DNA of 64,000 nt from Staphylococcus phage vB_Sau_P68. Positions 26,449-57,827 of this stretch are shown here, piece by piece. The position numbers were made by a program, and so were the translations under genes. The notes under the pieces were generated by a model, which saw nothing but the letters and a program-made list of their open reading frames with translations, did no database searches and was not told the origin of the DNA. The stretch lies in sequence record OL741057.1. One strand, given 5' to 3'. How positions within the stretch are numbered: the first letter of the stretch is position 1; every line of letters starts with the position of its first letter.

Positions 26449-26825
26449 CGTCTTTTTTTATTTTTAAAGTTACTCTTTTTAATAATTTTCATCATCTTGT
26501 ACCATATTCCTCCAAGTATCGAACCTATAAAACTTATAGTAAATATAATTATAGGGTCATTAAATCCAATATAATGTTCAGTATTTTCTATGGAATCTAT
26601 TACATCATTTTTAATAAGTACAGATGTTGTCTGAAACATAGTTAAAACTATGTATGTGCCTATACCTATTATAGCATAAATTACATACAAAACAAAAACG
26701 TTTTTACTGGAGAACTTACTGTGAACAAAAATCATTAAAGTTAAAAGACTTAAACAGGTAAATACTACTGATAGTGACGTTATAACATTCATTCCTACCA
26801 AAGTTTTCACCACCGTAATGTTCAA
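26445..26825 (-). CDS. membrane protein (3-4 transmembrane helices)
   Basis: 126 aa with several hydrophobic helices. Confidence 0.65.
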   Translation of the reverse strand: MNITVVKTLVGMNVITSLSVVFTCLSLLTLMIFVHSKFSSKNVFVLYVIYAIIGIGTYIVLTMFQTTSVLIKNDVIDSIENTEHYIGFNDPIIIFTISFIGSILGGIWYKMMKIIKKSNFKNKKRR

Positions 26826-33826: not shown

Positions 33827-33945
33827 TTATTGAGTGACTTTAAGTAGTCACTTTTTTATTTGTCTTATTGTTGACTCCCTAACATTGTTAATTATATATT
33901 ATATATTAGTAATTAATAATAAGTAATAAATATATATATAACTAT

Positions 33946-33985
33946 AATAGGAGTACTCCTTATTTTCTAAATACGTACTTTTTCT
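33946..33985. repeat. direct repeat copy 1 containing palindrome AGGAGTACTCCT
   Basis: AATAGGAGTACTCCTTATTTTCTAAATACGTACTTTTTC; a second, near-identical copy lies 178 bp downstream. Confidence 0.7.
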
Positions 33986-34123
33986 TCTGTAAGTACTGAT
34001 ATAAAGGGATTTTACTTTAGATAAATATAAATTATTACTCAGAATAGTAATTTTTCTGTTCTTGTTAATTATAATTATATATTTAATATTATTAATTACT
34101 TATATCAGAATATAATTATATAT

Positions 34124-34162
34124 AATAGGAGTCCTCCTTATTTTCTAAATACGTACTTTTTC
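34124..34162. repeat. direct repeat copy 2 (AGGAGTCCTCCT core)
   Basis: AATAGGAGTCCTCCTTATTTTCTAAATACGTACTTTTTC. Confidence 0.7.
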
Positions 34163-34223
34163 TCTTGTAACCCTCGGTATTAAAGGATTCTTCAAAATAA
34201 TTTAAATTATTTTTAAAAAACTG

Positions 34224-34252
34224 TTGACTTATTTATCAATATAGTATATAGT
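34224..34252 (+). promoter_or_regulatory. sigma-A-type promoter (TTGACT-17-TATAGT)
   Basis: Consensus spacing; lies upstream of the 34291 gene. Confidence 0.6.
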
Positions 34253-34290
34253 TAAACTATCAAATAAAACAAGAAAAGGATTGATTAATT

Positions 34291-34509
34291 ATGAAAAGAC
34301 AAAAAATGTTTTACTCAAGTTTAATATGTAAAGAATGTGGTAATGTATTCAAAGTACCAAGAAAAAGAGCAAATAAAAGAGAAGAAGGTCATATCAAAGA
34401 TATATACTGTATCAAATGTTGTAAAACTACAAAACATGTAGAAGATAATCGTAGTGAAGCAGAAAGAAGATGGGATGCTATTCAGGAAGAATTAACAAAA
34501 GATAACTAA
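34291..34509 (+). CDS. small zinc-ribbon protein
   Basis: 72 aa; CKECGN...CIKCCKTTKH; RBS AAAAGGA. Confidence 0.6.
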   Translation: MKRQKMFYSSLICKECGNVFKVPRKRANKREEGHIKDIYCIKCCKTTKHVEDNRSEAERRWDAIQEELTKDN

Positions 34510-34535: not shown

Positions 34536-34564
34536 TTGACAAAGGTATCAGTATATGCTATAAT
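34536..34564 (+). promoter_or_regulatory. consensus sigma-A promoter (TTGACA-17-TATAAT)
   Basis: Perfect -35 and -10 with a 17-nt spacer. Confidence 0.7.
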
Positions 34565-34570
34565 GTAATT

Positions 34571-34722
34571 AACAATAAAACAAATACCTTACACATCACT
34601 GTTTTTTCTTACATTGTTTTCCAGTCCAAACAATAACAATGTTATTCTCTATTCTACTGAATAAACTAAACCCTCTATAAATAATATACTTGTAGGATTA
34701 ACGAGGGAATCCTACTTTTATA
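34571..34722 (+). ncRNA. candidate small RNA (~150 nt) between a consensus promoter and an intrinsic terminator
   Basis: No ORF. Internal hairpin CAUUGUU...AACAAUG. Terminator GUAGGAUU-AACGAGGG-AAUCCUAC followed by a U-run (34682-34722). Confidence 0.45.
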
Positions 34723-34741
34723 ATTTTTTTTTGAAATTAAC

Positions 34742-34770
34742 TTGACAAGTAATAAAAATTATGTTATAGT
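34742..34770 (+). promoter_or_regulatory. sigma-A promoter (TTGACA-17-TATAGT)
   Basis: Consensus -35 with 17-nt spacer; it drives transcription into the ORF-free region upstream of tRNA-Asp. Confidence 0.65.
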
Positions 34771-34776
34771 TAATAT

Positions 34777-35652
34777 ATAAATAATACAACTAAATATCTG
34801 AGCATAGTGACTGAATAATGATTTGGTAATCATAAGGTACAAGATAATCAAACGAATCAAAACTTATCGGAGTTATTTCGGTAAGATGAGTCGTCATTAG
34901 TATTGTTTAATACGATTGGTATACTTGGTACTTACTTATAAGGTCTGTAGAGTATGATAACAGCTAGGGTTTAATTTCTTCTTAGGGTCTTAGCGGAATC
35001 CTAGGAAGATACGCTATAACGACTTCCTGTAGTTGGAGCACAGAAATGTGTTTGATAATAGAGGTTATCAGTATGAGTAGCATAAATCTACAGGTTCAAA
35101 AGATATATATTTGATAAAAATAATTTGGTAATCAAATAAATTTACTTTTCTTCGACCATGTGAAAGTTACTAACTAATATGTTAGTATCACAATATCCTT
35201 TTGGATTGCGTGCGATGGACTTAAGGTAGCTCCTTAATAGAGTCAAGCGTAGTGATTAACTTAATAACAGGTCTTATAGGTAGGTTCCTCGTGAGACGGG
35301 TTATGCTTGGATATTTAGTTGCATTATATCAGAATGTGACTATAAATATTTTCCTCTTTATAGTTTATTATTAACAATTATCAGTTTCCTCCTTTGATTG
35401 ATAATTAAAAAGAATCTACAAGGAGTATATTTTCACTCTTTCATGTATTTATTGTTCACACTCCTTTATGAACCAATAACTTACTCCTTGTAGATTATAC
35501 ATATTTCCTTCTTAGGTACCAATTACCACGCTTTGTTCATTTCACCTCCTTTCACTTAATATATAGTTGTTATGAGTGGTAATAATCGTTGCTTCGAACC
35601 TAAGAGAAAACCTGCTATACATTAAGGTAAGGTTAGGGTATAGCATTTATTT
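34777..35652 (+). ncRNA. candidate large structured non-coding RNA or tRNA leader (~880 nt, ORF-free)
   Basis: No ORF of 60 aa or more on either strand. Long-range 13-bp stem UCUACAAGGAGUA/UACUCCUUGUAGA. Many hairpins, elevated GC, and repeated AUUUGGUAAUCA motifs. A hairpin (GCUAUAC...GUAUAGC) lies just before the tRNA. Confidence 0.3.
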
Positions 35653-35653
35653 T

Positions 35654-35727
35654 GGCTCATTGGTGTAACTGGTTAACACACTGCCCTGTCACGGCAGAGA
35701 GTACGAGTTCGAGTCTCGTATGAGTCG
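35654..35727 (+). tRNA. tRNA-Asp (anticodon GUC)
   Basis: Cloverleaf: acceptor GGCUCAU/AUGAGUC, D-arm GUGU-AACUGGUUAA-CACA, anticodon arm CUGCC-CUGUCAC-GGCAG, T-arm ACGAG-UUCGAGU-CUCGU. No encoded CCA. Confidence 0.85.
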
Positions 35728-35767
35728 TAAACTAATATACTTTACATATTTAAAAGGAGAGATATAA

Positions 35768-36037: not shown

Positions 36038-36541
36038 ATGACTAATGAAGCTAAACAACCTAAAGTTGTTGGAGGAATAAACCTTAGTACACGAACTAAG
36101 AGTAAAACATTTTGGGTAGCAATTATATCGGCAGTAGCAGTATTTGCTAATCAAATTACAGGTGCTTTTGGTTTAGATTATTCAGCTCAAATTGAGCAAG
36201 GTGTCAATATCATAGGTTCTATACTAACATTATTAGCAGGTTTAGGTATTATTGTTGATAATAATACTAAAGGTCTTAAAGACAGTGATATTGTTCAAAC
36301 AGACTATACAAAACCTCGTGATAGTAAAGACCCTAATGAATTTGTTCAATGGCAAGCAAATGCAAACACAGCTAGTACTTTTGAATTAGACAACTACGAA
36401 AACAATGCAGAGCCTGATACAGATGATAGTGATGAAGTACCTGCTATTGAAGATGAAATTGATGGCGGTTCAGCACCTTCTCAAGACGAAGAAGATACCG
36501 AAGAACACGGTAAAGTATTTGCGGAGGAGGAAGTTAAGTAA
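36038..36541 (+). CDS. holin
   Basis: 167 aa. Two transmembrane helices followed by an acidic C-terminal tail. Immediately upstream of, and overlapping, the endolysin start (ATGA-type). The size matches what I recall for the Kayvirus holin. Confidence 0.8.
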
Positions 36542-37175
36542 TGGCTAAGACGCAAGCAGAAATAAATAAACGTTTAGACGCATATGCAAAAGGAACAGTA
36601 GATAGCCCTTATAGAGTTAAGAAAGCAACAAGTTATGACCCTTCATTTGGTGTAATGGAGGCAGGAGCAATTGATGTAGATAAATATTATCACGCTCAGT
36701 GTCAAGACCTTATTACAGACTATGTATTATGGTTAACAGATAATAAAGTTAGAACTTGGGGTAATGCTAAAGACCAAATCAAACAAAATTATGGTACTGG
36801 ATTTAAAATACACCAAAATAAACCTTCTACAGTACCTAAAAAAGGTTGGATTGCAGTATTTACTTCAGGTAGCTATACACAGTGGGGTCACATAGGTATT
36901 GTATATGATGGAGGTAATACTTCAACATTTACTATTTTAGAGCAAAACTGGAACGGTTACGCTAATAAAAAACCTACAAAACGTGTAGATAACTATTACG
37001 GATTAACTCATTTCATTGAAATACCTGTAAAAGCAGGAACTACTGTTAAAAAAGAAACAGCTAAGAAAAGTGCAAGTAAAACACCTGCACCTAAAAAGAA
37101 AGCAACATTAAAAGTTTCTAAGAATCATATTAACTATACAATGGATAAACGAGGTAAAAAACCTGAAGGAATGGT
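36541..37175 (+). CDS. lysK: endolysin exon 1 (CHAP domain), LysK-like
   Basis: Reads [12 protein letters not shown]...[24 protein letters not shown]..., a CHAP Cys/His pattern. The frame ends in an intron-encoded stop right after ...KKPEGMV. Confidence 0.85.
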
Positions 37176-38132
37176 GTAAAAAATAATCTATAAAATAACT
37201 TGTAATTCTATTAGTTCTATGGTATAATACTTATATAATGATGTAGGAGGTATTATACATGGAAGAAATTTGGAAAGACATTCAAGGATATGAAGGTAAA
37301 TATAAAGTTAGTAACCTAGGAAATGTTAAATCAATAAAACGAACTGTTAAACACGCAGGAAGTAATACTAGAACTTTTCCTGAAACTTTATTGAAACCTA
37401 ATAAAGTAGCATTTGATTATCTTCAAGTAACTCTATATAAAGAAGGTAAAAGAAAATGTAGGTACGTTCATAATTTAGTAATGGAAGCTTTTGTAGGAGA
37501 AAAGGAAAAAGGTTTTGAGACAAATCATAAAAATGAAATAAAAAGTGATAATAGGCTTGAAAACTTAGAATACATTACTGCAAAAGAAAATAATAATTAT
37601 GGGACACGAATACAAAGAATGTCTGAAAAAAATACTAATGGGAAAAGAAGTAAGAAAATTAAAGGTACTCATTTAAAAACTAAAGTTGAAATTATTTTAC
37701 CTTCTATTGAAGAAGCAAAAAGACAAGGATATGGTAATCATATATCTGAAGTTTGTAATGGTAAAAGAAATTCATGTAAAGGTTATAAATGGGAATTTAT
37801 AGATTAAGCACTGCATATATCGTGAGGTATATGTACTAAAAACATAAATTGCTTTGAAGAACCTTAGAGCCTTGATACCACAATAAAGCTGAAAAGACTT
37901 TATGAGGGTTTAACAAGTTCAAGGATTGGTTTGTTTAGCATCACTACTCCTAAGTGATAGAAAAATCATAAGGAGAATGTTCAACGACTAGAGGATTGCC
38001 TCCTCGTAGGGTTCAAGTGAACTCGAAAGAAGAACTATCTCACAGAGATAGAGAGAAATAGTCTGCTCACGTCCTGTAATGGGAGTGCTAGGTAATACCT
38101 AGAGCTAGATTAACGAACTAGTGAAACATAAG
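37176..38132 (+). mobile_element. group I intron in endolysin gene carrying an HNH homing endonuclease ORF
   Basis: 957 nt. 5' splice site after U (AUGGU|), terminal G at 38132, then exon 2 (G AUA CAC AAC GAU = V-I-H-N-D). Downstream of the ORF: R element GUUCAACGACUA (~38029) and S element AAAUAGUCUGC (~38086) form P7. Internal extended -10 promoter at 37200-37228. Confidence 0.8.
37259..37807 (+). CDS. intron-encoded HNH homing endonuclease (I-KsaI-like)
   Basis: 182 aa. Motifs HKNEIKSDNRLENLEYITAKENN (HNH) and C-terminal NSCKGYKWEF. RBS GGAGG. Confidence 0.8.
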   Translation: MEEIWKDIQGYEGKYKVSNLGNVKSIKRTVKHAGSNTRTFPETLLKPNKVAFDYLQVTLYKEGKRKCRYVHNLVMEAFVGEKEKGFETNHKNEIKSDNRLENLEYITAKENNNYGTRIQRMSEKNTNGKRSKKIKGTHLKTKVEIILPSIEEAKRQGYGNHISEVCNGKRNSCKGYKWEFID

Positions 38133-38988
38133 GATACACAACGATGCGGGTCGTTCTTCAGGACAACAATACGAGAATTCATTAGCTAAAGCAGGTTATG
38201 CTAGATATGCTAATGGTATTGCTCATTACTACGGTTCTGAGGGTTATGTATGGGAAGCAATAGATGCTAAGAATCAAATTGCTTGGCATACAGGAGATGG
38301 GACAGGAGCAAACTCAGGTAACTTTAGATTTGCAGGTATTGAAGTCTGTCAATCAATGAGTGCTAGTGATGCTCAATTCCTTAAAAATGAACAAGCAGTA
38401 TTCCAATTTACAGCAGAAAAATTTAAAGAGTGGGGTCTTACTCCTAACCGTAAAACTGTAAGATTGCATATGGAATTCGTTCCTACTGCATGTCCTCACC
38501 GTTCTATGGTTCTTCATACAGGATTTAATCCAGTAACACAAGGAAGACCATCACAAGCAATAATGAATAAACTTAAAGATTATTTCATTAAACAAATTAA
38601 AAACTACATGAGTAACGGAACTTCAAGTTCTACTGTAGTTAAAAAAGGTAAAACAAGTAGTGCAAGTACACCGGCAACTAGACCAGTTACAGGTTCTTGG
38701 AAAAAGAACCAATACGGAACTTGGTATAAACCGGAAAACGCAACATTTGTTAATGGTAACCAACCTATAGTAACTAGAATAGGTTCTCCATTCTTAAATG
38801 CTCCAGTAGGAGGTAACTTACCGGCAGGAGCTACAATTGTATATGACGAAGTTTGTATCCAAGCAGGTCATATTTGGATTGGTTATAACGCTTATAATGG
38901 TAACAGAGTATATTGCCCTGTTAGAACTTGTCAAGGTGTTCCACCTTCACATGTACCTGGAGTTGCCTGGGGGACATTCAAGAGTTAA
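38133..38988 (+). CDS. lysK: endolysin exon 2 (amidase_2 + SH3b domains)
   Basis: Frame open from 38125 ([16 protein letters not shown]...). Amidase motifs (AWHTGDG...[12 protein letters not shown]) and SH3b C-terminus (...[27 protein letters not shown]...VAWGTFKS). Joined exons give ~496 aa. Confidence 0.85.
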
Positions 38989-57141: not shown

Positions 57142-57166
57142 TAATAGATTAAATTGATAAATTAAC

Positions 57167-57195
57167 TTGACATTAAGTATTATTTATGATATACT
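57167..57195 (+). promoter_or_regulatory. sigma-A promoter (TTGACA-17-TATACT) driving an ORF-free transcript
   Basis: Consensus hexamers immediately after the 56923 gene. Confidence 0.7.
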
Positions 57196-57201
57196 ATTAG
57201 T

Positions 57202-57770
57202 ATAGTAGTTAACTAAAGCCTCTTATATAATGCTAAACACAGTTAGCCTTTTTTAACCTTATAATGAGAGTAAGAGCCTAACTATATGGGTACTTTGAAA
57301 TCATTATATTTTACCTATGGTATAGGTGAACCGTACCTACTTTCCAAATAGGGATAACTCAAAATCAGGTAGCAACTTGAGAGTGAAATAAGTCGGACAG
57401 CTTTATATTCAGAAGAAGTGTCAGAGGATATAAAGTAATGGCTTGAGATACCGAGCCTTGATTACTAGGTATCAGACACTTGGCGTGTAACCTAAGTTTA
57501 TGGTTAGATGGGTTGCAACATAAGGAAGCTGATTTCCTCTGTATAGCTTGGAGGAACTCCATAAGACAGCCAAACCACTGTATATTCAGTTACTATGGCA
57601 AAGCTATATGAGGTAAACTCTTATATAGCTCCCTGTTATAGTACATACACGCAGTGACGAGCGTTTCAACATCAAGGATACTCATACAATTGTCGTAAAA
57701 TAATATTAACCGTAATCTAAGTACGGGAGCCTTGATGGGACACCTATTTTAATTAATAGGTGTTTTTTTT
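57202..57770 (+). ncRNA. candidate ~570-nt structured non-coding RNA with its own promoter and intrinsic terminator
   Basis: No ORF on the plus strand. GC-elevated. Many hairpins (e.g. AGCUAUAUGAG...CUCUUAUAUAGCU; CCAUA...UAUGG; GGAAGCUGAUUUCC). Repeated GAGCCUUGAU motif. Terminator ACACCTATT-TTAATTAAT-AGGTGT followed by TTTTTTTT at 57740-57770. Confidence 0.5.
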
Positions 57771-57771
57771 A

Positions 57772-57800
57772 TTGACATTTATAAATAAGTATGGTAAGAT
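57772..57800 (+). promoter_or_regulatory. sigma-A promoter (TTGACA-17-TAAGAT)
   Basis: Upstream of the phosphatase gene. Confidence 0.6.
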
Positions 57801-57827
57801 AGTTATATACAATAAGGAGGAGATTAA

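What the first reader, a model, noticed from the sequence alone, without database searches (positions are those of the whole stretch)
34536..35727. About 1.1 kb ORF-free, promoter-driven structured region immediately upstream of tRNA-Asp: candidate small and large ncRNAs
Two consensus sigma-A promoters (34536, 34742) fire into sequence with no ORF of 60 aa or more on either strand. The first unit is closed by a textbook terminator, giving a ~150-nt sRNA candidate. The second runs ~880 nt into tRNA-Asp. It contains a 13-bp long-range stem (UCUACAAGGAGUA/UACUCCUUGUAGA), repeated motifs and numerous hairpins. Large ornate RNAs of the GOLLD and ROOL classes are characteristically phage-borne and tRNA-adjacent. 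A staphylococcal-phage counterpart would be new. Alternatives are a long processed tRNA leader or decayed tRNA genes.
Basis: partly seen in the sequence, partly recalled or inferred. Interest (0 to 1): 0.6.

Follow-up and report, generated by a model that had tools for sequence, protein, structure and literature searches.

The report
Divergent ROOL RNA in staphylococcal phage
The gene-free stretch encodes a ~545-nt intricately folded noncoding RNA, already seen by RNA-seq as 'lncRNA2', the most abundant transcript of phage K-like viruses, and here it proves to be a divergent member of the ROOL family of large cage-forming phage RNAs, which gives that family of unknown function a tractable lytic-phage model.

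Summary
Two near-consensus sigma-A promoters, a terminator, no ORF above 40 aa, a perfect 15-nt inverted repeat and tRNA-Asp all lie where stated.

The region holds three units, not two:
- a ~150-nt terminated small RNA, 34571-34725;
- a ~545-nt highly structured RNA, 34782-35326, closed by a 26-bp terminal helix;

The 545-nt RNA is conserved in seven Twortvirinae clades at 55-70% identity. Its structure has 148 pairs, 93 with compensatory changes, and 95.9% of cells are paired against ~40% in slid controls.

It is the ortholog of the published phage K/515A1 'lncRNA2', which is 8.4% of normalised counts alone, and 27% of reads together with lncRNA1.

Wide Rfam scans found nothing. Narrow scans give end-to-end ROOL (RF03087) matches: 52.5 bits, E=1e-9 here, and 66.2 bits, E=5e-13 in a Sepunavirus. 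Both are below the curated cut-off of 99.1 bits. Of 125 ROOL-model pairs, 74 equal my independent structure.

Verdict: a divergent ROOL homolog. The transcript is known; the family assignment appears new. Function is unknown, and cage assembly is inferred only by homology.

The parts
34291..34509 (+). Upstream neighbour 'Iro', a 72-aa basic zinc-ribbon protein (PHROG 1257, annotated as 'ribosome associated inhibitor A; zinc finger domain'). It is context and a possible partner, not part of the RNA.
   Evidence: ORF. PHROG 1257 at E=2.5e-26. Only weak zinc-ribbon hits in Pfam. Syntenic with the RNA in all Twortvirinae loci. It also lies ~370 nt downstream of the ROOL hit in Listeria phage WIL-1.
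34536..34564 (+). Promoter P1: TTGACA-17-TATAAT with extended TG.
   Evidence: 12 of 12 consensus positions. Conserved in Kayvirus, Silviavirus, Sciuriunavirus, Sepunavirus and Twort.
34571..34725 (+). Unit 1, a candidate ~150-nt small RNA. It has a conserved 5' part with a hairpin at about 34611-34642 and an intrinsic terminator, stem 34692-34715 plus U tract.
   Evidence: Terminator, with an equivalent terminator annotated in phage K. The hairpin and the terminator stem change compensatorily between genera. The single-sequence fold is weak, z = -1.7. No transcript-level evidence specific to this unit was found.
34742..34770 (+). Promoter P2: TTGACA-17-TATAGT with extended TG. It drives the large RNA. 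The inferred start is near 34777.
   Evidence: 11 of 12 consensus positions. Conserved across genera. It is inferred to correspond to early promoter p78 of lncRNA2 in vB_SauM-515A1 (PMC7698491) and to an annotated promoter in Remus.
34782..35326 (+). ROOL-type large structured RNA, the ortholog of published 'lncRNA2', 545 nt between the two ends of the terminal helix.
   Evidence: Alignment A2 holds 16 sequences from 7 clades. The structure has 148 pairs, 95.9% paired, 93 pairs with double changes, and 0 of 500 shuffles reach this. Rfam ROOL RF03087 matches 34788-35317 at 52.5 bits, E=1e-9, model positions 1-574 of 574. Phage K lncRNA2 (38,024-38,566) maps to 34806-35312.
34782..34807 (+). 5' strand of the 26-bp terminal helix P1. 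It pairs with 35301-35326.
   Evidence: I1. In one search, helix 1 has 14 of 26 pairs with double changes and 96.9% paired. G-U pairs show the pairing is at the RNA level on the + strand.
35301..35326 (+). 3' strand of terminal helix P1.
   Evidence: As above. No U tract follows it, so the 3' end is inferred to arise by processing.
34810..34927 (+). 5' domain. It holds the GUGACUGAA internal loop plus hairpin 34818-34833, the closing helix 34840-34851 with 34916-34927, and hairpins 34853-34893 and 34900-34913.
   Evidence: Helices 2-7, coordinates. They coincide with ROOL-model helices.
34930..34953 (+). 5' strand of the long-range helix (19 + 4 bp) that encloses the central domain. It pairs with 35259-35285.
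   Evidence: Helices 8 and 9 have 15 of 23 pairs with double changes. Part of it is identical to the ROOL-model helix.
34955..35070 (+). Central subdomain. It holds helix 34955-34966 with 35059-35070, helix 34967-34971 with 35021-35025, the long hairpin 34977-35009, and the invariant GAAA-tetraloop hairpin 35034-35055.
   Evidence: Helices 10-13; helix 10 has 9 of 10 pairs covarying. They align to the ROOL consensus 'UUGAaGccgaGAAAucggCGUAUAA'.
34992..35015 (+). Pseudoknot 1. Hairpin-loop bases AGC (34992-34994) pair with GCU (35013-35015).
   Evidence: Found by a covariation scan. It is 100% paired, with 2 of 3 pairs showing double changes. The ROOL consensus carries complementary 'gGUGGcA ... 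UgCCA' at the same place.
35028..35092 (+). Pseudoknot 2. UGUAG (35028-35032) pairs with CUACA (35088-35092) and crosses helix 10. It encloses the conserved GUAYRAGUAGCAYAAA (35071-35086).
   Evidence: 100% paired, 3 of 5 pairs with double changes. The ROOL consensus has 'uGcc ... Ggca' and 'GUAcaAGUAGCccaaa' at the same place.
35093..35146 (+). AU-rich linker, variable in sequence and length. It is closed by the helix GCAU (35080-35083) with AUGU (35158-35161).
   Evidence: Variable columns ~370-435 of A2. It aligns to the long ROOL linker loop. The closing pair switches U-A to C-G in 7 of 16 sequences (columns 361/447).
35147..35256 (+). 3' part of the central domain. It holds the conserved UUCUUC..CAUGUGAAAGUU, hairpin 35166-35189, hairpin 35214-35244 with the GGUAGCUCC loop region (35221-35237), and hairpin 35246-35256.
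   Evidence: Helices 15-19. The motifs match ROOL 'UUCUGAAUGauggGUGAAAgUU' and 'GGUcGCUCC'. This is the part where the ROOL-model helices fit worst.
35329..35652 (+). Spacer, or tRNA leader, present only in Kayvirus/PSU5-type phages. Two invariant hairpins display CCUC(C) loops (35339-35364 and 35376-35406). Further helices are 35509-35517 with 35598-35606 and 35613-35625 with 35633-35645.
   Evidence: Fold z = -4.1. Alignment A5 of 8 phages gives 7 pairs with compensatory changes, all in the last three helices, and the first ~95 nt are almost invariant, with two variable positions. No homolog in other genera apart from a 57-nt match in Sciuriunavirus.
35653..35728 (+). tRNA-Asp (GTC).
   Evidence: ARAGORN. 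Rfam tRNA at 64.6 bits. K-like relatives carry tRNA-Phe and tRNA-Trp after it, and these are absent here.

Best explanation
Window 34782-35326 (+) encodes a divergent member of the ROOL family of large ornate phage RNAs. It is the ortholog of the RNA published as 'lncRNA2' of phage K and vB_SauM-515A1.

Shown:
- A near-consensus sigma-A promoter (34742-34770) precedes it.
- Orthologs in K-like phages are transcribed from 2 min after infection and accumulate to be among the most abundant phage transcripts.
- The RNA has a covariation-supported closed architecture: a 26-bp terminal helix, a 5' domain, a 23-bp long-range helix enclosing a central domain, at least two pseudoknots, an invariant GAAA hairpin and an AU-rich variable linker.
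- This architecture and its conserved motifs map end to end onto the Rfam ROOL model.

Inferred:
- Transcription starts near 34777, 5 nt before the terminal helix.
- The 3' end is made by processing or trimming of a longer transcript back to the base of that helix, since no terminator follows it.
- Clamping both ends in a long duplex makes the RNA resistant to exonucleases. That would explain why it far exceeds the downstream spacer and tRNAs in RNA-seq.

Inferred by homology only: like ROOL env-120, it acts as a folded RNA particle and probably self-assembles into a multimeric RNA cage with the variable linker inside. It does not act as an mRNA, an antisense regulator or a mere tRNA leader. 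Its biological role is unknown, as it is for all ROOL RNAs.

Two separate accessory units flank it: the ~150-nt small RNA upstream, and the ~320-nt CCUCC-loop spacer plus tRNA-Asp downstream.
For: 1. Comparative structure. Alignment A2 holds 16 sequences from 7 clades (Kayvirus, PSU5-type, Baoshanvirus, Silviavirus, Sciuriunavirus, Twortvirus, Sepunavirus) at 55-70% identity between clades. The RNAalifold structure has 148 pairs, 95.9% paired against 38-42% in slid controls. 93 pairs carry double changes against 18-24 in controls. The covariation score is 0.578 against 0.07-0.10, and 0 of 500 shuffles reach it. Two pseudoknots are 100% paired, with 5 of 8 pairs covarying.
2. ROOL covariance model. 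Window 34788-35317 scores 52.5 bits, E=1e-9, over model positions 1-574 of 574. The Sepunavirus homolog, 57% identical to the window RNA, scores 66.2 bits, E=4.6e-13, full length.
3. Agreement of structures. Of 125 ROOL-model pairs projected on the window, 74 are identical to my independently derived pairs and 99 lie within 2 nt. The ROOL-model structure counted on A2 is 78.7% paired against 36-42% in controls, with 70 pairs showing double changes and a score of 0.493 against 0.06-0.12.
4. Bridge sequence. Listeria phage WIL-1 has a ROOL hit of 87 bits, E=5e-18. The HMM built from A2 hits inside that region at E=8e-7.
5. Shared motifs in the same order. These are GAAA hairpin flanked by UUGR/GAUAA, GUAcaAGUAGC, the AU-rich linker, GUGAAAgUU, GGUnGCUCC, and a 3' hairpin before the P1 3' strand.
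6. Family traits. Length is 543-598 nt across the family against the ROOL mean of 581 nt (PMC5737381). It lies in a phage beside tRNA genes.
7. Abundance of orthologs. PMC7698491 reports 8.4% of normalised counts for lncRNA2. PMC9241854 reports the highest read count of the genome. PMC11598898 reports 27% of reads for lncRNA1 and lncRNA2 together. Phage K lncRNA2 coordinates map to 34806-35312.
8. No coding potential: no ORF above 40 aa.
Against: - Both scores (52.5 and 66.2 bits) are well below Rfam's curated gathering score of 99.1. Scans of larger stretches did not report ROOL at all.
- The 3' third of the ROOL model fits the Twortvirinae alignment poorly. Several helices there are only 0-56% paired. 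The 3' domain may therefore be remodelled, or the model alignment may be out of register.
- Only two of ROOL's three reported pseudoknots were recovered. They came from a post-hoc scan of all column pairs.
- There are no transcript data for this exact phage. Neither RNA end is mapped at nucleotide resolution, and published boundaries are coverage-based.
- Oligomerisation, the protective role of the terminal helix and the 3' processing are all untested.
- No function is known for any ROOL RNA, so the mechanism stays structural rather than biological.
Confidence: 0.85

Rival explanations
1. An independent, new class of large structured phage RNA that only resembles ROOL by convergence or by sharing some modules. 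The sub-threshold ROOL matches would then reflect AU-rich composition plus a few common motifs.
For: Scores are roughly half to two-thirds of the ROOL gathering threshold. The bias terms are large: 33.9 and 25.1. The 3' third of the model fits poorly. Wide scans found nothing.
Against: Two genera only 57% identical to each other both give end-to-end matches, at E=1e-9 and 5e-13. 74 of 125 model pairs equal pairs derived without the model. Model pairs covary in the family. Six sequence motifs occur in the same order. A Listeria phage RNA bridges the two sets. Size, context and abundance are the same.
Confidence: 0.08
2. A long 5' leader or precursor of tRNA-Asp with no function of its own. It would be abundant only because it is a stable processing by-product.
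For: It lies upstream of tRNA-Asp on the same strand with no terminator between them. In Remus, tRNA-Ser starts 8 nt after its 3' end.
Against: The RNA is conserved, with about 170 invariant positions of which half are unpaired. This holds in Baoshanvirus, Sciuriunavirus, Sepunavirus, Twort and LSA2308, which have no tRNA at the locus. The extensive covariation and pseudoknots are not expected of a leader.
Confidence: 0.03
3. A base-pairing regulator or sponge, meaning an antisense or anti-Shine-Dalgarno type RNA acting on host or phage mRNAs rather than a folded particle.
For: The downstream spacer shows two invariant hairpins with CCUC(C) loops. It also has a UCACCUCCUUUC stretch that resembles the 3' tail of 16S rRNA (the 16S comparison is from my own knowledge). 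Its CU-rich motif density is in the top ~1% of windows.
Against: These motifs are in the spacer, not in the ROOL-type core, and the spacer exists only in Kayvirus-type phages. The UCACCUCC stretch is not conserved in PSU5-type phages. In the core, 55% of positions are base-paired internally and no long conserved single-stranded seed is evident. No target was tested.
Confidence: 0.04
4. Decayed tRNA genes, a degenerate intron, or remnants of protein-coding genes.
For: tRNA genes are gained and lost at this locus between relatives. Twort-like phages carry many introns (my own knowledge).
Against: No tRNA, intron or other family hit appears in the region even at E up to 10, and ARAGORN finds only tRNA-Asp. 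No ORF exceeds 40 aa. Substitutions follow base pairing, not codons.
Confidence: 0.01

Closest known systems
ROOL RNA (Rfam RF03087; Weinberg et al. 2017, PMC5737381; Cousin et al. 2017, PMC5643018; cryo-EM by Kretsch et al. 2025, PMC12286853)
   Same: - Size: 545 nt here against a mean of 581 nt.
- A terminal helix joins the two ends.
- Multi-junction architecture with pseudoknots.
- A GAAA hairpin, and the AGUAGC, GUGAAAgUU and GGUnGCUCC motifs in the same order.
- An AU-rich variable linker.
- Phage location next to tRNA genes, and very high abundance.
- Significant end-to-end covariance-model match.
   Different: - It scores far below the curated Rfam threshold (52-66 against 99.1 bits), and default-type filters miss it.
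- Its terminal helix is longer, 26 against 16 model pairs.
- Its 5' domain has two rather than three hairpins.
- Its 3' third does not fit the model helices well.
- The host group, strictly lytic Staphylococcus myoviruses, was not found among described ROOL carriers in the literature searched.
- Oligomeric state is unknown.
'lncRNA2' of vB_SauM-515A1 and phage K, listed as 'lnc002' at 37679-38832 in Table 1 of PMC9241854 (whose running text uses 'lnc001' for this intergenic region) (PMC7698491, PMC9241854, PMC11598898)
   Same: It is the same gene. The core is 96% identical over aligned positions. It has the same promoter, the same neighbours (Iro upstream, tRNA-Asp downstream), and its coordinates map onto 34806-35312.
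   Different: This phage lacks a 36-nt peripheral hairpin that K-like and Silviavirus RNAs have. It also lacks tRNA-Phe and tRNA-Trp after tRNA-Asp. The publications give coverage and conservation only, with no secondary structure and no family assignment.
ROOL-like RNA of Listeria P100-like phages (Pecentumvirus; seen here in WIL-1, L101 3072-3623)
   Same: It is in the same virus family (Herelleviridae). It also scores below threshold for ROOL (87 bits). It sits in a tRNA cluster and next to an Iro homolog. The Twortvirinae profile detects it.
   Different: The gene order is reversed: ROOL, then tRNA, then Iro. It is followed by genes for a Ro60-like RNA-binding protein, an HD protein and RtcB, none of which appears in the Staphylococcus loci fetched. 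Only ~170 nt are detectably similar at the sequence level.
GOLLD RNA (Rfam RF01998)
   Same: It is a large ornate RNA of phages and prophages, near tRNAs, abundant late in infection, and cage-forming (PMC12286853).
   Different: No match to the GOLLD model appears even in the narrow scan at E up to 10. GOLLD is larger, above 800 nt, with an unrelated sequence and structure.
OLE and raiA RNAs (other large structured bacterial RNAs)
   Same: They are large, highly structured and abundant, with unknown or only partly known function.
   Different: They are chromosomal rather than phage-borne. No model match appears. OLE works with the membrane protein OapA and with OapC.

Membership tests
ROOL RNA (RF03087) | Score at or above Rfam's curated gathering threshold (99.1 bits) | tested here: not met
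   52.5 bits for the window, 66.2 bits for the Sepunavirus homolog, and 87 bits for Listeria phage WIL-1. This is an operational cut-off of one model built without these phages, not a biological property. I therefore file the RNA as a divergent, sub-threshold homolog.
ROOL RNA (RF03087) | Statistically significant, end-to-end match to the family covariance model | tested here: met
   Model positions 1-574 of 574 are matched at E=1e-9 (window 34788-35317) and E=4.6e-13 (L009 1706-2219). E-values apply to the small stretches searched. Larger scans lost the match in the filters.
ROOL RNA (RF03087) | ROOL secondary structure: a terminal helix and many multistem junctions, with model helices kept by covariation | tested here: met
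   74 of 125 projected model pairs are identical to my independent structure and 99 lie within 2 nt. On A2 the model pairs are 78.7% paired against 36-42% in controls, and 70 pairs show double changes. Caveat: helices in the 3' third (A2 columns ~458-580) fit poorly.
ROOL RNA (RF03087) | Three pseudoknots (PMC5737381) | tested here: inconclusive
   Two pseudoknots were recovered by a blind covariation scan, 100% paired with 5 of 8 pairs covarying. They lie where the ROOL consensus has complementary segments. A third was not identified. The Rfam pseudoknot annotation itself was not available to me.
ROOL RNA (RF03087) | Length near 581 nt | tested here: met
   545 nt between the helix ends here. 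The aligned stretches across 16 family members are 543-598 nt.
ROOL RNA (RF03087) | Encoded in phages or prophages, often beside tRNA genes | tested here: met
   The window is a Twortvirinae phage. tRNA-Asp lies 326 nt downstream. There are 1-3 tRNAs in K-like phages and Remus, none in five other genera.
ROOL RNA (RF03087) | Very high cellular abundance | not testable with these tools
   Met for the orthologs according to three RNA-seq papers. There are no data for this phage.
ROOL RNA (RF03087) | Self-assembly into an RNA-only homo-octameric cage (PMC12286853) | not testable with these tools
   This needs cryo-EM, mass photometry or SEC-MALS on the transcript. I found no palindromic, covarying loops by eye, which neither supports nor excludes assembly.
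GOLLD RNA (RF01998) | Match to the family covariance model | tested here: not met
   No GOLLD match at E up to 10 in the 571-nt scan or in the wider scans.
tRNA or decayed tRNA | Cloverleaf detectable by ARAGORN or the Rfam tRNA model | tested here: not met
   Only tRNA-Asp at 35653-35728 is found. Nothing is found in 34536-35652 at E up to 10.
Group I intron | Match to an Rfam intron model, with flanking exons | tested here: not met
   No intron hit. No interrupted gene flanks the region.

The most novel reading that the evidence does not exclude
In Herelleviridae, ROOL would be the core of a conserved RNA module that acts on the host's translation or tRNA pool. The module would comprise the small basic zinc-ribbon protein Iro, a short promoter-proximal RNA, the ROOL particle, a spacer displaying anti-Shine-Dalgarno-like CCUCC loops, and phage tRNAs. 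For example, ROOL cages might bind or enclose tRNAs or ribosomal subunits with Iro as a protein partner, and the spacer might act as a mimic or sponge of the 16S rRNA 3' tail. That would give ROOL its first function.
Probability: 0.12. Interest if true: 0.85.

Novelty: new member of a known kind. Interest (0 to 1): 0.55.

Why it matters
ROOL RNAs are among the largest and most intricate bacterial and phage RNAs. They form cages larger than a ribosome, and they still have no known function.

Showing that the top-ranking transcript of phage K-type therapeutic phages is a ROOL homolog does three things:
1. It explains an unexplained 'lncRNA' reported in three transcriptome studies.
2. It places ROOL in a strictly lytic, genetically tractable phage-host pair (phage K and S. 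aureus) for which time-resolved RNA-seq already exists. Deletion, end-mapping, pull-down and in-cell imaging experiments can therefore be designed at once.
3. It shows that a whole divergent ROOL branch, in Staphylococcus Twortvirinae and probably Listeria P100-like phages, lies below the curated Rfam threshold and is lost by standard search filters. The family is therefore likely wider than catalogued.

It also matters for phage therapy. Up to a quarter of the phage's transcript reads go to two RNAs whose role is unknown.

Tried and rejected
- Wide Rfam scans. I scanned 2.4 kb at E up to 10, the whole window at gathering score, and five related loci. All found nothing over the RNA, and for a long time I treated it as an orphan class. 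The match appeared only when the scan was limited to the RNA itself. The earlier negatives were filter artefacts.\n- Paralogy with the second abundant RNA, lncRNA1. There is no similarity by blastn or nhmmer. The window's lncRNA1-type locus instead gives a DUF3800-I hit.\n- Homologs outside phages. A scan for an invariant 27-nt motif found none in 185,579 bacterial and archaeal genomes. It found only three more full-length copies in metagenomes and twelve in viral contigs, all of the Twort-like type.\n- Decayed tRNAs and minus-strand mini-ORFs in the spacer. There are no tRNA hits. The Shine-Dalgarno-like motifs on the minus strand are followed only by 5-17 codon frames, and one of them is destroyed in K-like phages. 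I rejected this in favour of plus-strand RNA helices, which tolerate G-U pairs.\n- Self-complementary loops as a sign of multimerisation. None was convincing by eye.\n- Iro as an identifiable RNA-binding protein. Pfam gives only generic zinc ribbons. The PDB sequence search gives weak hits at E of 0.03 and weaker, mostly to ribosomal protein eS26, with L33 and an RNase P protein among them. That is too weak to use.\n- Unit 1 as a strongly structured RNA: z is only -1.7.
Full report
**What is in the sequence**

The window is a Staphylococcus myovirus of the Twortvirinae, about 97% identical over this region to phages St14.GH, CF7 and the PG-2021 series.
- A perfect sigma-A promoter lies at 34536-34564, and an 11-of-12 promoter lies at 34742-34770. 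Both have an extended TG.
- An intrinsic terminator lies at 34692-34715.
- tRNA-Asp lies at 35653-35728.
- No ORF longer than 40 aa lies between the zinc-ribbon gene 'Iro' (34291-34509) and the 61-codon gene that precedes holin and endolysin.

**The region is already in the literature as a transcript**

Three RNA-seq studies of K-like phages report an unusually abundant noncoding RNA here.
- vB_SauM-515A1 'lncRNA2' is 525 nt, makes up 8.4% of normalised counts and has an early promoter, p78 (PMC7698491).
- In phage K the highest read number of the genome falls between gp191 (Iro) and tRNA-Asp. [quoted passage not shown]
- Phage K lncRNA2 spans 38,024-38,566. Together with lncRNA1 it accounts for 27% of reads. 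The downstream tRNAs are much lower, although no terminator is seen (PMC11598898).

The last coordinates map to window 34806-35312. I found no paper giving a structure, a family assignment or a function.

**The real extent and structure of the large RNA**

Distant BLAST showed that only about 500 nt (roughly 34830-35330) are conserved outside Kayvirus. Synteny of Iro, noncoding region, optional tRNAs, small ORF, holin and endolysin holds in Kayvirus, Silviavirus, Baoshanvirus, Sciuriunavirus, Sepunavirus and Twort.

The 5' end of the conserved block is complementary to its 3' end in every genus. In the window this is a 26-bp helix, 34782-34807 with 35301-35326, containing G-U pairs that work only on the + strand.

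A motif scan of public collections added more homologs. All came from Twort-like viral contigs or metagenomes, and none from 185,579 bacterial and archaeal genomes.

Sixteen sequences from seven clades, 55-70% identical between clades, were aligned as A2 and folded.
- The structure has 148 pairs in 20 helices.
- 95.9% of cells are paired, against 38-42% when partners are slid by 1-3 columns.
- 93 pairs carry compensatory double changes, against 18-24 in controls.
- The covariation score is 0.578 against 0.07-0.10, and no shuffle out of 500 reaches the observed values.

A scan of all column pairs added two pseudoknots: 34992-34994 with 35013-35015, and 35028-35032 with 35088-35092. Both are 100% paired in all sequences, with 5 of 8 pairs covarying. 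Because they were picked post hoc, they deserve an independent test.

The single sequence folds 6.5 standard deviations better than shuffles. Of 170 invariant positions, half are unpaired, which is the signature of an RNA with tertiary structure. So the large RNA is ~545 nt and closed by its own ends. It does not extend to the tRNA.

**What it is**

Rfam scans of 2.4 kb at E up to 10, of the whole window, and of five related loci showed only tRNAs.

The turn came from the neighbouring gene. tblastn with Iro found homologs in Listeria P100-like and Bacillus phages. In Listeria phage WIL-1 the region ~370 nt upstream of Iro, inside a tRNA cluster, matches Rfam ROOL end to end at 87 bits, E=5e-18. 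The profile HMM built from A2 hits the middle of that same region at E=8e-7.

I then re-scanned only the RNA.
- Window 34788-35317 matches ROOL over model positions 1-574 of 574 at 52.5 bits, E=1e-9.
- The Sepunavirus homolog, 57% identical to the window RNA, matches at 66.2 bits, E=4.6e-13.
- Both are below the curated gathering score of 99.1. The earlier negatives were filter losses.

The match is not just a score.
- Of 125 model pairs projected onto the window, 74 are identical to pairs I had derived without the model, and 99 lie within 2 nt.
- Counted on A2, the externally defined ROOL structure is 78.7% paired against 36-42% in controls, with 70 pairs showing double changes.
- The two RNAs share the following in the same order: the terminal helix; the GUGA..GAA loop plus hairpin; the closed 5' domain; the long-range helix; the GAAA hairpin flanked by UUGR and GAUAA; GUAcaAGUAGC; an AU-rich variable linker closed by a short helix that covaries U-A to C-G; GUGAAAgUU; GGUnGCUCC; and a small 3' hairpin.
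- My two pseudoknots fall where the ROOL consensus has complementary segments.

The weakest part is the 3' third of the model, where several helices fit badly. That domain may be remodelled, or the model alignment may be out of register.

**How it most likely works**

Shown: promoter P2 precedes the RNA. Orthologs accumulate from 2 min to the end of infection. The RNA has the ROOL architecture.

Inferred:
- Transcription starts near 34777, 5 nt before P1.
- No terminator follows P1, so the 3' end is probably produced by trimming a longer transcript back to the helix. In Remus a tRNA-Ser begins 8 nt after it, so RNase P cleavage would nearly suffice there.
- Clamping both ends in a 26-bp duplex would protect the RNA. 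That would explain why it exceeds the downstream spacer and tRNAs so greatly.

Inferred by homology only: like ROOL env-120, which forms an RNA-only octameric cage of ~280 Å with a disordered linker inside (PMC12286853), it would act as a self-assembling folded particle. The biological role is unknown for the whole family.

**The other two units**

Unit 1 runs from P1 to the terminator, about 34571-34725. It has a conserved 5' part with a hairpin, and a terminator stem that changes compensatorily between genera. It folds weakly, and I found no specific transcript evidence for it.

The spacer 35329-35652 exists only in Kayvirus/PSU5-type phages. It folds well, z = -4.1. Its first ~95 nt are almost invariant in eight phages, with two variable positions. 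They form two hairpins whose loops display CCUC(C).

It is therefore a structured tRNA leader or a separate RNA. An anti-Shine-Dalgarno role is only a lead.

**Verdict**

The RNA is best described as a divergent, sub-threshold member of the ROOL family: a new member of a known kind. It is identical in gene terms to the published lncRNA2. Its value is that it links an unexplained, hugely abundant phage K transcript to ROOL and offers a tractable system for finding out what ROOL does.

Noticed in passing
window 57142-57827 (+): A second ORF-free, promoter-driven locus, with a TTGACA..TATACT promoter near 57168-57196 and a terminator near 57733-57775. It is syntenic with Kayvirus 'lncRNA1', but it lacks tRNA-Met and has a different middle ~330 nt. 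Rfam gives DUF3800-I RNA (RF02969) at 57642-57774, 45.0 bits and just above the gathering score of 44.2. It also gives a sub-threshold TEG147 match at 57255-57314 (44.5 against 56.1 bits). There is no similarity to the ROOL-type RNA.
   Followed up: partly
L101 3072-3623 (Listeria phage WIL-1, NC_025440): A ROOL match of 87 bits, E=5e-18 and below the gathering score, lies inside a tRNA cluster. It is ~370 nt upstream of an Iro homolog and is followed by genes for a Ro60-like 'RNA-binding protein', an HD-domain protein and RtcB ligase. By position it probably corresponds to one of the highly transcribed noncoding regions of Listeria phage CKA15, the one at 26,727 to 26,236. The CKA15 authors suggested their highly transcribed regions might include Y RNAs (PMC12282133).
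   Followed up: partly
window 34770-35340 versus wider scans: The same Rfam search finds ROOL only when the input is cut down to the RNA itself. Scans of 2.4 kb, 22.6 kb or 64 kb lose it in the speed filters (against 93, 100). Divergent AU-rich large RNAs may be missed systematically in this way.
   Followed up: yes
window 35339-35406: Two invariant 8- to 11-bp hairpins have loops reading UAUUUUCCUC and UUUCCUCCU. A stretch UCACCUCCUUUC at 35543-35554 is identical to the 3' tail of 16S rRNA as I recall it. The first ~95 nt of the spacer are almost unchanged (two variable positions) in eight phages whose remaining spacer differs by up to ~16%.
   Followed up: partly
window 33827-34290: An AT-rich gap (19.6% G+C) with no ORF lies just upstream of Iro. 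The equivalent region of phage K is reported as the only untranscribed locus and as a putative origin of replication (PMC9241854).
   Followed up: no
window 35729-35767 compared with L004 2745-2895: K-like phages carry tRNA-Phe and tRNA-Trp directly after tRNA-Asp. This phage and its closest relatives have only tRNA-Asp.
   Followed up: partly
L005 3013-3100 and 4357-4446 (Silviavirus Remus): tRNA-Ser starts 8 nt after the 3' end of the ROOL-type RNA. A transposase gene follows, with a RAGATH-18 RNA match downstream of it at 63.8 bits. This looks like an insertion-sequence insertion between the RNA and the lysis genes.
   Followed up: no
A2 columns 101-155 and 486-521 (window sites near 34875 and 35196): Two lineage-specific hairpin insertions sit at peripheral sites of the RNA. 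One is 45 nt, in phage PSU4. The other is 36 nt, in K-like and Silviavirus RNAs and absent from this window.
   Followed up: no
window 34291-34509 (Iro): The basic zinc-ribbon protein gives weak sequence hits, mostly to the N-terminal zinc-ribbon region of ribosomal protein eS26 (E of 0.03 and weaker). It also gives weak hits to L33 and an RNase P protein (E 0.3-0.7). All are too weak to interpret.
   Followed up: partly
window 36541-37807: An ORF with an endolysin-like N-terminal part (36541-37179) is followed after a short gap by a 182-aa ORF (37259-37807) that looks like a homing endonuclease. This suggests an intron-interrupted lysin gene, as in phage K. No group I intron reached the Rfam gathering score in the whole-window scan, and that negative may again be a filter effect.
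   Followed up: no
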